Shown in pieces: positions 55,301 through 58,300 of a stretch of DNA of 64,000 nt (positions within the stretch are counted from its first letter, which is position 1; every line of letters begins with the position of its first letter). The position numbers were made by a program. Source of the stretch: Trypanosoma brucei (taxonomy: Eukaryota); NCBI GenBank assembly GCA_000002445.1, contig CP000071.1:2176001-2240000 (forward strand), read 5' to 3'.

Positions 55301-58300
55301 TATCTTTGTCATGTAAACTCATTCTCCATCTTCTTTGAGATGAAGAAGCGTTCCGTCACTCGTATGACCCGCGATGCGGCGGTGAGCTGCTCCGTTTGCT
55401 GCTTTGTCTACCTGCTCACTGGATTTTTTGGCTACGCAGAATTCGGCACAACAGTGGAAGGCTCCGTTCTGAAACTTTACGACCCCTACGCAAATCCCGT
55501 CTTCTTTGTTTGCTTCGTTGGCATCATCGTAAAACTCTGCGCTGGGTTTTCGCTTAACATGCTCGCATGCCGTACAGCCCTCTTTCAGGTGCTGCGGTGG
55601 GACCTGGATACCATGTCATATGTTAGGCACAGTATCGTCAGTGTTTCATTTGCTGTCGGTTCGCTCGTTCTCGGTTTGTTCGTGCCAGACATCAACGTTA
55701 TCTTCGGGCTTGTCGGCGCCTTCTGCGGTGGCTTCATTGGCTTTATATTCCCAGCACTCTTCATCATGTACGCCGGTGGTTGGACACGCCAAAGCGTGGG
55801 CTGGGTGCAGTATATATTGACGTATGTATTGCTCATCTTGGGCGTTGTTGCAATTGTCTTTGGTACTAGCACGTCCATTTATTACACAATTAAGAAGTAC
55901 TATTAAGAAAGGCAAGGGAAGGAGTGCAAACGGTCCGTGAGGGGAACGGCAACTCGGTAGGCTTTGGGATGCACTTTACTGAGCAAATAAACAGCTAAAG
56001 AGTGATTTTTACTTCTTAACTTTTTATATGGGCCTTTATCCTTTATTATTTTACCCATACGGTTCTATTGTTGTACGCATCCCATACTCGAACCACTTGG
56101 CTGCGGTTTTCGCCCACAAGAACAGTTCAACCTTAGCTGCAGAAGCGTGAGACCGTTGCGGCGGAGTGGGATCCATTTTTCCATCATTTCTTTCCGTTGT
56201 TTGGTATACTTTTTTCTGTTGTTGTTATTTCTTTCCTCACTTTTTTTTCGTTGACCTTGGCAAGTTGCGGGGGGCTAGTCCTTTACACGTGTGTGAAAAG
56301 AATGACGGTCACTTGTGCGGCCTAACTAACCCAATGGGTAAACTGAACTAGCGAAACAGCTAAATGTTTTAACACCTTCCACTACAATTATTCTTTTTTC
56401 TACCAATCCTTAAAGCTACAGCCCTTCCCTCAAGTGTTTTACCTGTTTATTTTTATTTTAACTGACAAACTCTCAGCGTTGTTCTCCACCTTGGCGGTAT
56501 CGCCAAATCTCGGTTTTTACAATCTCCATCTAAAATACTGAGTTATAATTGCACACTTACAACCTCCAGCAGTCCATGTGAATACTGAATCCAGTGCCAA
56601 AAACTATTCCCTCTTTTTTCTTTTTTTATTTTTCAACCCCCAACACCTAGTGTACTACATACAGATAGAAGGGCAGCGTTAATAATTAAAAAAACACACG
56701 AACCACAGCAACACCCACCGACAATACATAGTCACCATTTCTTAACCAGTTGCGACTCATTTTATACATCAAACAAGCAGCAAAATCAACAACGAACTAA
56801 TAAAAAACTACATACCACCACAAAAAAACACAAACAAAAAGTTAAGGAAAGAACCTTCTAAAGGCAACATCACTTTTCCAGCCAACAAACATCTATATTT
56901 CACGCAAAATTCACCAAAAAAAATTTTTTAACAACGAAATATGAAGTTTTGCACAAAAACACGCATTCTTGCACAACCTGCACAACGTTGCATGTTTGTG
57001 CACAAAATGCGCACTATTGCGTATTTTCACGTAAAACACGCGTTCATACGTGTGTTTGTGCAAAAACAGTGTTGCAATGCAACATGTAACGTGTTTTGGC
57101 GTANNNNNNNNNNNNNNNNNNNNNNNNNNNNNNNNNNNNNNNNNNNNNNNNNNNNNNNNNNNNAAACACGCATTCTTGCACAACCTGCACAACGTTGCAT
57201 GTTTGTGCACAAAATGTGCACTATTGCGTATTTTCACGTAAAATACGCGTTCATACGTGTGTTTGTGCAAAAACAGTGTTGCAATGCAACATGTAACGTG
57301 TTTTGGCGTAAAACACGCATTCTTGCACAACCTGCACAACGTTGCATGTTTGTGCACAAAATGTGCACTATTGCGTATTTTCACGTAAAATACGCAATAA
57401 TTTGTAAAACTGGTAAATTCTTATGAAGGAGGTGAATATACATAAAAATTGTAATGATGTAGTTTATTCTGTTTGGAATTCTGTATTCGCTATAATTTTA
57501 TTACGCTTTTTATAGCATTCGTATTGGAGGTATTGTCTTCTAATAAATATGTCGTTGTTATTTCCAGGTGGTAATGTGGTATGTCGCTATTCTGCCTTTT
57601 ACGTTTTTTTGAAATGTTTTTTCGTGCCTTCGTGGGAGTTTCCCCCCACTGGCGCGGCAATCAGCCACCACCGTAGAGCCCTGAGATGCTATCGGTCTGG
57701 CGACTGTGGCAGAGTCTCCCTTTTTTCTTCATCCTAACACACCCTCTATAATTTTTGTTGTAGCTCCGCAGTTGAACGGAATACAGCAGATGGGGCGAGA
57801 AGCCCCCCTCCACCCCGGACTCTCCAAAAGATGTCAATTAGCAATCCTTTTGTTTTGATTTTTGTTATTCGTTTATTATTCTCTCCCCCTCTTTCTGTTT
57901 CTGGTGCTTGTTGACAGCATACCCCCTCTGTCTCTGAGGGTGTCTGGACTATTCCTGCGTCCGGTGCTTTCCCTGCTAGCTCCACTCTCGGCAATAAGGG
58001 GGGAAGTTGCAGAAGGGAGAGTGGGTTGTATGACTGTTACATTAGGTGAGGACTTCACCCGCGGCCGGCTCCGTTCAACCGCAATGAGGAACTGCGCCAG
58101 CCTTTTAGAGAAGCATATATCCTGCACACACACCCCTTCTACCACAAACCTGACACGTAATTCCTTCAAACAGGGACAGTTCATCAGGTGCAGCGACGTT
58201 TCTTCGCAGTCGCCGCGTTGGCTGGTAACAGCGCGCTCTACCTTCATACCGTGGATCTTCTTTTGATGTAGGGTGAGGCCAGTTTTGTTAGTACACTGCC

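What the first reader, a model, noticed from the sequence alone, without database searches (positions are those of the whole stretch)
55907..57875. Convergent strand-switch region holding a collapsed 147-bp satellite: candidate centromeric or termination-zone repeat array
Plus-strand genes end at 55906, and the next gene (57876..58984) is on the minus strand, so transcription converges here. Inside this roughly 2-kb A-rich gap is a tandem repeat with a 147-bp unit (two full units at about 98.6% identity, plus a partial unit). It is broken by a 60-N gap whose two edges fall exactly on unit boundaries. Sixty is not a multiple of 147, so the in-phase edges imply the real gap has a different, probably much larger, size. 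The assembler most likely collapsed a long array. In African trypanosomes the megabase-chromosome centromeres are built from tandem arrays of AT-rich repeats of roughly this unit length. They sit at strand-switch regions, often next to degenerate retroelements. A convergent switch region with an unassemblable satellite of nucleosome-length (147 bp) periodicity fits that picture. It could equally be a plain termination-zone satellite. I cannot confirm identity to any known repeat from memory.
Basis: partly seen in the sequence, partly recalled or inferred. Interest (0 to 1): 0.7.

Follow-up and report, generated by a model that had tools for sequence, protein, structure and literature searches.

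The report
Known Trypanosoma brucei chromosome 8 centromere repeat

Summary
The repeat is real. There are two 147-bp units (56957..57103 and 57164..57310, 145/147 identical) and an 85-nt partial unit (57311..57395). A 60-N gap splits them, and its edges are in register with the unit.

The window is T. b. brucei TREU927 chromosome 8. The flanking amino-acid transporter is 467/467 identical to XP_847601.1. The gap start also maps exactly onto the published chr8 gap at 2,233,104.

Obado 2007 lists this locus as the chr8 centromeric 147-bp, 59% AT array with an unresolved gap. Echeverry 2012 sized it at about 100 kb. Akiyoshi & Gull 2014 found KKT2/KKT3 peaks on it. Rabuffo 2024 assembled the Lister 427 equivalent at about 19 kb.

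In T. b. equiperdum the array starts at the same junction and runs for at least 62 units. Fifty-six of those units carry the published CIR147 target 15-mer. In T. b. gambiense the array also ends in an N gap.

The "convergent strand switch" is not supported. The minus-strand "gene" is a frameshifted ingi/DIRE-like zinc-finger remnant. In both relatives the next real genes to the right are on the plus strand.

Verdict: the centromeric and collapsed-array readings are correct, but already known. Low interest.

The parts
54503..55906 (+). Last bona fide plus-strand gene before the array: a 467-aa amino-acid transporter. It is the left flanking ORF of the chr8 centromere, probably Tb927.8.7740.
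   Evidence: 467/467 identical to XP_847601.1 of T. b. brucei TREU927 on a 2,481,190-bp record. Pfam Aa_trans. Obado 2007 Table 1 names Tb927.8.7740 as a flank. The link from accession to locus tag is inferred.
55907..56956 (+). Unique spacer between the transporter gene and the array, becoming A/C-rich just before the first unit.
   Evidence: Collinear at 98% identity with T. b. equiperdum L001 and T. b. gambiense L002 right up to the first repeat unit, so the left array junction is orthologous in all three. Composition.
56957..57103 (.). 147-bp unit 1: the left-edge variant of the CIR147-class centromeric satellite.
   Evidence: 145/147 identical to unit 2. 96-97% identical to the first two units of the equiperdum array and about 89-90% to its interior units.
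57104..57163 (.). 60-N assembly gap standing in for the unassembled bulk of the array.
   Evidence: Only N run in the window. Its start maps to chr8 position 2,233,104, the gap cited by Obado 2007, if the window is 2,176,001..2,240,000. Array about 100 kb by mapping.
57164..57310 (.). 147-bp unit 2.
   Evidence: It lies within the stretch that Echeverry 2012 lists as chr8 2233201..2233419, which is window 57201..57419.
57311..57395 (.). Partial unit 3 (85 nt) and the right end of the assembled repeat.
   Evidence: 85/85 identical to the start of unit 2, then similarity is lost.
57396..57603 (.). AT-rich unique junction between the array and the retroelement remnant.
   Evidence: No counterpart in L001-L004 by blastn. 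Sequence.
57604..60223 (-). Degenerate ingi/DIRE-like non-LTR retroelement remnant whose 3' end points at the array. It holds frameshifted C2H2 zinc-finger ORFs (58244..58984 and 57876..58361) and faint RNase H-region traces (59145..60223).
   Evidence: The 246-aa ORF hits only 'Tbingi protein, partial' of T. theileri (E 2e-16; tblastn 1e-24). zf-C2H2 hits. Stops in a single frame. Collinear weak tblastn matches to a gambiense RNase_H ORF. Window 57604..59007 is 95% identical to L002 16600..15196, but inverted.
60557..64000 (+). Non-coding right flank, syntenic with gambiense and equiperdum, leading to plus-strand genes beyond the window end.
   Evidence: 96.8% to L002 16603..20062 and 96.9% to L004 1..3311, both forward. 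No ORF of 150 aa or more after 59994. The next genes in L003 and L004 are on the plus strand.

Best explanation
This is the assembled stub of the regional centromere of Trypanosoma brucei brucei TREU927 chromosome 8. A tandem array of 147-bp, roughly 60% AT CIR147-class units, tens of kb long in the real chromosome, lies between the last amino-acid transporter gene and a degenerate ingi/DIRE retroelement. The reference assembly keeps only 1 + 1.58 edge units around a placeholder gap of 60 N.

From the cited literature, not from this window: the kinetoplastid kinetochore (KKT2/KKT3 and partners) assembles on the array. Topoisomerase II acts there at mitosis. The repeats are transcribed on both strands at low level and processed by DCL2 into AGO1-bound siRNAs.

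Shown here: the identity of the locus, the repeat anatomy, the orthologous array start in two other subspecies, and a long array in one of them.

Inferred: the real size of the TREU927 array, and that the units in the window, which are edge variants, are themselves bound by the kinetochore.
For: Organism and locus:
- The flanking transporter is 467/467 identical to TREU927 XP_847601.1 on a 2.48-Mb record.
- The window gap start at 57104 corresponds to the published chr8 gap at 2,233,104 with an offset of exactly 34 x 64,000.
- The Echeverry chr8 repeat coordinates fall on window 57201..57419.

Repeat class:
- Obado 2007 Table 1 lists chr8 as a 147-bp unit, 59% AT, with an unresolved gap. The window unit is 147 bp and 59.2% AT.
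- The window unit carries the published CIR147 TALE target at 14/15 positions.

Collapse:
- In T. b. equiperdum the array starts at the orthologous junction and runs 61.9 or more copies to the end of the fetched locus.
- 56 of those units contain the exact published CIR147 15-mer, GTATTTTCACGTCAA on the strand the array reads.
- The gambiense array also stops at an N gap.
- About 100 kb by restriction mapping in TREU927.
- 19,090 and 18,625 bp, period 147, in the nanopore assembly of Lister 427.

Function:
- KKT2/KKT3 ChIP-seq peaks lie on the AT-rich arrays of chromosomes 1, 2 and 4-8.
- Topo-II cleavage maps to these arrays.
- CIR147 siRNAs make up 8.6% of AGO1 reads and depend on DCL2.
- CIR147 FISH and KKT2 data for centromeres 4, 5 and 8.
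- The expected degenerate retroelement is adjacent.
Against: - The window holds only 2.58 units, so the array length and kinetochore occupancy cannot be read from it.
- The window's units are edge variants. They are only about 89-90% identical to the interior units of the equiperdum array (132/147 to their consensus), and they miss the TALE 15-mer by one base.
- The units on both sides of the gap are the same variant (98.6-100%). This leaves open that the right-hand contig was placed by the finishers and is not the true right edge.
- I could not compare directly with a TREU927 or Lister 427 long-read assembly. TREU927 is not in the contig index.
- In the eLife 2026 study the CIR147 TALE was enriched at centromere 8 only 'to some extent'.
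Confidence: 0.95

Rival explanations
1. It is a plain transcription-termination-zone satellite at a convergent strand-switch region, with no centromere function.
For: Plus-strand genes stop at 55906 and there is minus-strand ORF signal at 57876..58984. A short A-rich patch at about 56500..57250 reverses the usual T-rich skew. Reynolds 2016 lists CIR147 among H3.V-enriched siRNA loci together with convergent strand-switch regions.
Against: The minus-strand ORFs are a frameshifted retroelement remnant, not a gene cluster. The next real genes on the right are on the plus strand in both syntenic relatives. AT skew is negative again from 57250 to 64000. The locus is a mapped topo-II site and a KKT2/KKT3 site. 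Akiyoshi & Gull saw no specific H3v enrichment at centromeres.
Confidence: 0.03
2. It is a short local duplication of 2-3 units with a cosmetic gap, so nothing substantial is missing from the assembly.
For: Removing the 60 N joins the units seamlessly in phase. That is what a short intact array with an inserted placeholder would look like.
Against: The orthologous equiperdum array has 62 or more units. Gambiense has 8.4 or more units before its own gap. Restriction mapping gives about 100 kb in TREU927 itself. Lister 427 has about 19 kb on each homologue.
Confidence: 0.01
3. It is a copy of a dispersed, non-centromeric repeat family.
For: None found here. CIR147 units do occur on several chromosomes.
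Against: No other copy in the 64-kb window. [quoted passage not shown] Tschudi 2012 and Rabuffo 2024 place CIR147 at centromeres 4, 5 and 8.
Confidence: 0.01

Closest known systems
CIR147 / class III centromeric repeats of T. brucei chromosomes 4, 5 and 8 (Obado 2007; Patrick 2009; Tschudi 2012; Rabuffo 2024)
   Same: 147-bp unit, about 59% AT, and a single site between gene clusters next to a degenerate retroelement. The chromosome, flanking gene and gap position match those published for chr8. The syntenic equiperdum array carries the published CIR147 15-mer in 56 units.
   Different: The 2.58 units retained in the window are edge variants. They are about 10% diverged from the interior units and one base off the TALE target.
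29-30-bp and 120-bp centromeric repeats of T. brucei chromosomes 1, 2, 3, 6 and 7
   Same: Same role and the same genomic setting. The 147-bp unit shows a weak internal periodicity at 29 bp (42% self-identity, reached by about 1 in 500 shuffles), consistent with the sub-repeat structure described by Obado 2007.
   Different: Different unit length. On those chromosomes the arrays sit next to rRNA genes, whereas no rRNA or tRNA gene is present in this window.
Alpha-satellite-type regional centromeres of animals and plants
   Same: Nucleosome-length AT-rich tandem units in arrays of tens of kb, flanked by retroelements, which assemblers collapse.
   Different: Kinetoplastids have no CENP-A and the kinetochore is built from KKT proteins. 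No gradient of divergence from centre to edge was reported, although the equiperdum locus shows distinct edge units.
DIRE / ingi non-LTR retroelements of trypanosomes
   Same: C-terminal C2H2 zinc-finger region preceded by RNase H-like sequence, degenerate and frameshifted, and located beside a centromeric array as Obado 2007 describes.
   Different: Only a fragment is recognisable. No reverse-transcriptase or endonuclease domain was demonstrated here. Its orientation is opposite to that in the gambiense assembly.

Membership tests
CIR147-class centromeric satellite of T. brucei | Tandem unit of about 147 bp | tested here: met
   Copies at 56957, 57164 and 57311 are in 147-bp register once the 60 N are discounted. 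TRF gives period 147 in the syntenic equiperdum array.
CIR147-class centromeric satellite of T. brucei | AT content about 59-62% (59% for chr8) | tested here: met
   Unit GC is 40.8%, so AT is 59.2%. Obado 2007 Table 1 gives chr8 = 59%.
CIR147-class centromeric satellite of T. brucei | Sequence similarity to the published CIR147 consensus (>90% among chromosomes 4, 5, 8-11) | tested here: inconclusive
   No full published consensus was available as text. Indirect evidence: 14/15 match to the published TALE target; 56 exact copies of that target in the orthologous equiperdum array; window unit 132/147 (about 90%) identical to the consensus of that array's interior units.
CIR147-class centromeric satellite of T. 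brucei | Located on chr8 between Tb927.8.7740 and Tb927.8.7750, beside the assembly gap at 2,233,104 | tested here: met
   The flanking protein is identical to TREU927 XP_847601.1. The gap coordinate matches with an offset of exactly 34 x 64,000. The next TREU927 protein accession (XP_847602.1) is the 1104-aa gene found to the right in the relatives.
CIR147-class centromeric satellite of T. brucei | Array of tens of kb | not testable with these tools
   The window holds 2.58 units. At least 9 kb is seen in equiperdum. Literature gives about 100 kb for TREU927 and about 19 kb for Lister 427.
CIR147-class centromeric satellite of T. brucei | Kinetochore (KKT2/KKT3) occupancy and topo-II cleavage | not testable with these tools
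   Literature only.
CIR147-class centromeric satellite of T. brucei | Source of DCL2-dependent, AGO1-bound siRNAs | not testable with these tools
   Literature only: Tschudi 2012 and Reynolds 2016.
Convergent strand-switch region | Bona fide gene clusters on opposite strands pointing at each other | tested here: not met
   Left cluster is on the plus strand. The only minus-strand ORFs are a frameshifted ingi-like remnant. The next real genes to the right are on the plus strand in gambiense L003 and equiperdum L004, both collinear and forward with window 60557..64000. The TREU927 genes themselves lie beyond the window end, so this rests on synteny.
ingi/DIRE retroelement | Reverse transcriptase, endonuclease, RNase H and C-terminal zinc-finger coding regions, usually degenerate in DIRE | tested here: inconclusive
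   The zinc-finger part is clear. The RNase H part is only faint (E 1e-7 to 7e-6).

The most novel reading that the evidence does not exclude
Centromere 8 may sit inside a head-to-tail (same-strand) junction and not at a strand switch. If so, the CIR147 array plus the antisense-oriented DIRE remnant would have to stop plus-strand Pol II coming from the transporter cluster, and a new plus-strand unit would start downstream. Read-through from the left meeting antisense transcription from the retroelement could then supply the double-stranded RNA behind the CIR147 siRNAs. The inverted orientation of the DIRE fragment in the gambiense assembly relative to TREU927 would then be a structural polymorphism at the centromere border.
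Probability: 0.3. Interest if true: 0.25.

Novelty: already known. Interest (0 to 1): 0.1.

Why it matters
It matters mainly as quality control. A reader working from raw sequence alone recognised a trypanosome centromere and a collapsed satellite, and every check it proposed has already been published with the result it predicted: repeat identity, long-read sizing, KKT ChIP-seq and topo-II mapping.

For users of the TREU927 reference, the 60 N at this position hide tens of kb of centromeric satellite. Read mapping, ChIP enrichment and distance estimates across chr8 at about 2.233 Mb are therefore unreliable.

Tried and rejected
- TRF on the window did not report the array. The N gap leaves 1.0 and 1.58 copies, so I verified the repeat by direct comparison.
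- Exact-protein look-ups for three TREU927 proteins (two from the window, one from a cluster listing) found no indexed contig. TREU927 itself could therefore not be fetched, and I used the gambiense and equiperdum orthologues from the cluster listing instead.
- I tried to size the equiperdum array by locating its right flank. That flank is on a different chromosome-scale record (CM010679.1) from the left flank (CM010675.1), so no size could be derived.
I reached the same region through a homologue search.
- Rfam and tRNA scans found nothing in the window.
- I asked whether the centromere interrupts a chr4/chr8 duplicated block. Only the TLC-domain gene and the transporter are shared with the chr4-type locus, and the genes downstream do not match. 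I dropped this line.
- I considered that the window might come from a species other than T. brucei, because the top homologue was only 90% identical. That hit is the chr4 paralogue; the orthologue is 100% identical.

Full report
**1. Observation**

The window has one N run, 57104..57163, 60 bases long.
- The 147 bases before it (56957..57103) and the 147 bases after it (57164..57310) are identical at 145 of 147 positions.
- The next 85 bases (57311..57395) repeat the start of the unit exactly. After that, similarity is lost.
- The last base before the gap is unit position 147 and the first base after it is unit position 1, so the two edges are in register.
- The unit is 40.8% GC. No 14-mer of it occurs elsewhere in the 64 kb.
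- TRF missed the array because the gap leaves only 1.0 and 1.58 copies.
- The unit has a weak internal 29-bp periodicity: 42% self-identity, a value reached by about 1 in 500 shuffles.

The repeat part of the finding is therefore fully confirmed.

The gene part is only half right.
- The plus-strand ORF ending at 55906 is a genuine 467-aa amino-acid transporter.
- 57876..58984 is not one gene. A single-frame translation runs into stops after 246 aa.
- There are two overlapping ORFs in different frames, each with C2H2 zinc fingers.

**2. Where the window comes from**

The transporter's best database hit was only 90% identical, but that hit is a paralogue. Within the same 90% cluster there are 467-aa members, and the window protein is 467/467 identical to XP_847601.1 of T. 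b. brucei TREU927, which lies on a 2,481,190-bp record. It differs at 1 residue from T. b. gambiense DAL972 and at 2 residues from T. b. equiperdum.

Obado et al. 2007 (PMC1868937) place the chromosome 8 AT-rich array between Tb927.8.7740 and Tb927.8.7750. [quoted passage not shown]

The window's gap starts at 57104. Subtracting, 2,233,104 - 57,104 = 2,176,000 = 34 x 64,000, so the window fits chr8 2,176,001..2,240,000 exactly.

Echeverry et al. 2012 give the chr8 repeat hits as 2233201..2233419. That corresponds to window 57201..57419, on the right-hand copies.

The coordinate mapping is an inference, but three independent numbers agree.

**3. What the repeat is**

I fetched the orthologous loci through the orthologous transporter proteins. 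Both are collinear with the window at 98% identity right up to the first repeat unit, so the left array junction is orthologous in all three subspecies.

In T. b. equiperdum (L001, CM010675.1):
- The array starts at that junction and runs 61.9 or more copies of a 147-bp unit, to the end of the 10-kb flank.
- Its first two units are 96-97% identical to the window unit.
- The remaining units are about 86-91% identical to it.
- 56 units contain the exact 15-mer GTATTTTCACGTCAA. This is the reverse complement of the CIR147 target TTGACGTGAAAATAC published in the eLife 2026 TALE study.
- The window's units match this 15-mer at 14 of 15 positions.

In T. b. gambiense (L002) there are 8.4 copies of a 150-bp variant, and the array then also runs into an N gap of 100 N.

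The window therefore holds edge-variant units of the CIR147-class array. The canonical interior is what the gap hides.

**4. Size and function, from the literature**

| Evidence | Result | Source |
|---|---|---|
| Long-range restriction mapping, chr8 array in TREU927 | about 100 kb; the database size was 'unknown' because of the gap | |
| Ultra-long nanopore assembly of Lister 427, centromeres 8A and 8B | 19,090 and 18,625 bp, period 147, class III | |
| Etoposide-induced topoisomerase-II cleavage | maps to these arrays | |
| KKT2 and KKT3 ChIP-seq | one strong peak per chromosome; on chromosomes 1, 2 and 4-8 it coincides with the AT-rich array | |
| CIR147 repeats as siRNA source | 8.6% of AGO1-bound small RNAs, DCL2-dependent | |
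| H3.V loss | raises CIR147 siRNAs | |
| FISH and Micro-C | centromeres 4, 5 and 8 cluster | |

**5. The surroundings**

All large ORFs to the left are on the plus strand. They include a CorA-like transporter, a dihydrouridine synthase, a RING-variant protein, a receptor-type adenylate cyclase, about ten Aa_trans genes in tandem, a TLC-domain protein and the final transporter.

To the right of the array:
- The 246-aa minus-strand ORF has a single database relative, a 'Tbingi protein, partial' of T. theileri (E 2e-16; tblastn 1e-24).
- Upstream of it on the minus strand are faint collinear matches to an RNase_H-containing ORF from the gambiense locus.
- This is the degenerate ingi/DIRE-type retroelement that Obado 2007 reports beside every T. 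brucei centromeric array.
- From 59995 to 64000 there is no ORF of 150 aa or more.
- Window 60557..64000 is collinear, in forward orientation, with gambiense and equiperdum sequence.
- That sequence leads about 7 kb further on to a conserved 1104-aa gene, then an 898-aa gene and an aldehyde dehydrogenase, all on the plus strand.
- The TREU927 orthologue of the 1104-aa protein is XP_847602.1, the accession immediately after the transporter's. It is therefore the next annotated protein-coding gene.
- AT skew is negative (T-rich plus strand) on both sides of the array, except for a patch at about 56500..57250.

On this evidence the centromere lies between two same-strand clusters, not at a convergent switch. 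The TREU927 genes themselves are outside the window, so this conclusion rests on synteny.

**6. Explanation and rivals**

The best explanation is a regional centromere whose satellite is collapsed at a known reference gap (confidence 0.95).
- A pure termination-zone satellite is contradicted by the KKT and topo-II data and by the gene orientation.
- A genuinely short array is contradicted by the relatives and by the restriction mapping.
- A dispersed repeat is contradicted by its single-site distribution.

One caveat remains. The units on both sides of the gap are the same edge variant, so the right-hand contig may not be the true right edge. Only long reads from TREU927 would settle that.

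**7. Novelty**

This is already known in every respect: sequence class, position, gap, size and function. The only small points that might deserve a look are the same-strand setting of centromere 8, the opposite orientation of the DIRE fragment in gambiense versus TREU927, and the placement of the two centromere 8 flanks on different chromosome-scale records in the equiperdum assembly. The last two may well be assembly artefacts.

Interest 0.1.

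Noticed in passing
L001 (CM010675.1) and L004 (CM010679.1), T. b. equiperdum GCA_003543875.1: The left flank of centromere 8 (transporter orthologue plus array) and its right flank (1104-aa gene; L004 1..3311 = window 60701..64000) lie on two different chromosome-scale records. The record with the left flank also carries the chr4-type transporter paralogue about 1.05 Mb away. This could be a scaffolding join through shared CIR147 arrays or a real rearrangement.
   Followed up: partly
window 57604..59007 vs L002 16600..15196: The zinc-finger part of the retroelement remnant is 95% identical between TREU927 and gambiense DAL972 but in opposite orientation relative to the array and to the shared right flank. 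The RNase H-side sequence next to it is not orthologous. This is either an inversion polymorphism or an assembly chimera.
   Followed up: partly
window 56941..57426 (+), 56911..57384 (-); L002 12421..13620: Because 147 and 150 are multiples of 3, stop-free frames run through the satellite and produce spurious ORFs. In gambiense a 399-aa 'gene' is called on the array and even collects chance Pfam hits (Phage_Orf51, Toxin_29).
   Followed up: yes
window 18025..42028: A tandem cluster of about ten Aa_trans amino-acid transporter genes. There are four 498-aa copies and two 497-aa copies at spacings of 2495-2842 bp, flanked by 565-aa and 550-aa versions, plus truncated copies at 32967..33287 and 39328..39825.
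   Followed up: partly
window 52058..55906 vs L005 7469..11422: The TLC-domain gene plus transporter pair just left of the centromere has a paralogous pair on the chr4-type locus (74% and 90% protein identity). There it is followed directly by other genes, with no satellite. The neighbouring genes on either side are not shared.
   Followed up: partly
window 45053..45089 and 48378..48419; ORFs 45274..45933 and 46999..47676: The same compound (CA)n(AT)n microsatellite occurs twice, 3.3 kb apart. Nearby are two ORFs (219 and 225 aa) with no Pfam match that are also called as genes in gambiense and equiperdum. This suggests a local duplication.
   Followed up: no
L001 12435..21404: In the equiperdum array the first two units differ from the interior (96-97% versus about 89% identity to the window unit). 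Runs of neighbouring interior units are 98-100% identical to each other. So there are distinct edge units and local homogenisation, although Obado 2007 reported no centre-to-edge gradient.
   Followed up: partly
window 12034..15903: A receptor-type adenylate cyclase (periplasmic-binding-protein-like domains plus a Guanylate_cyc catalytic domain) sits upstream of the transporter cluster.
   Followed up: no
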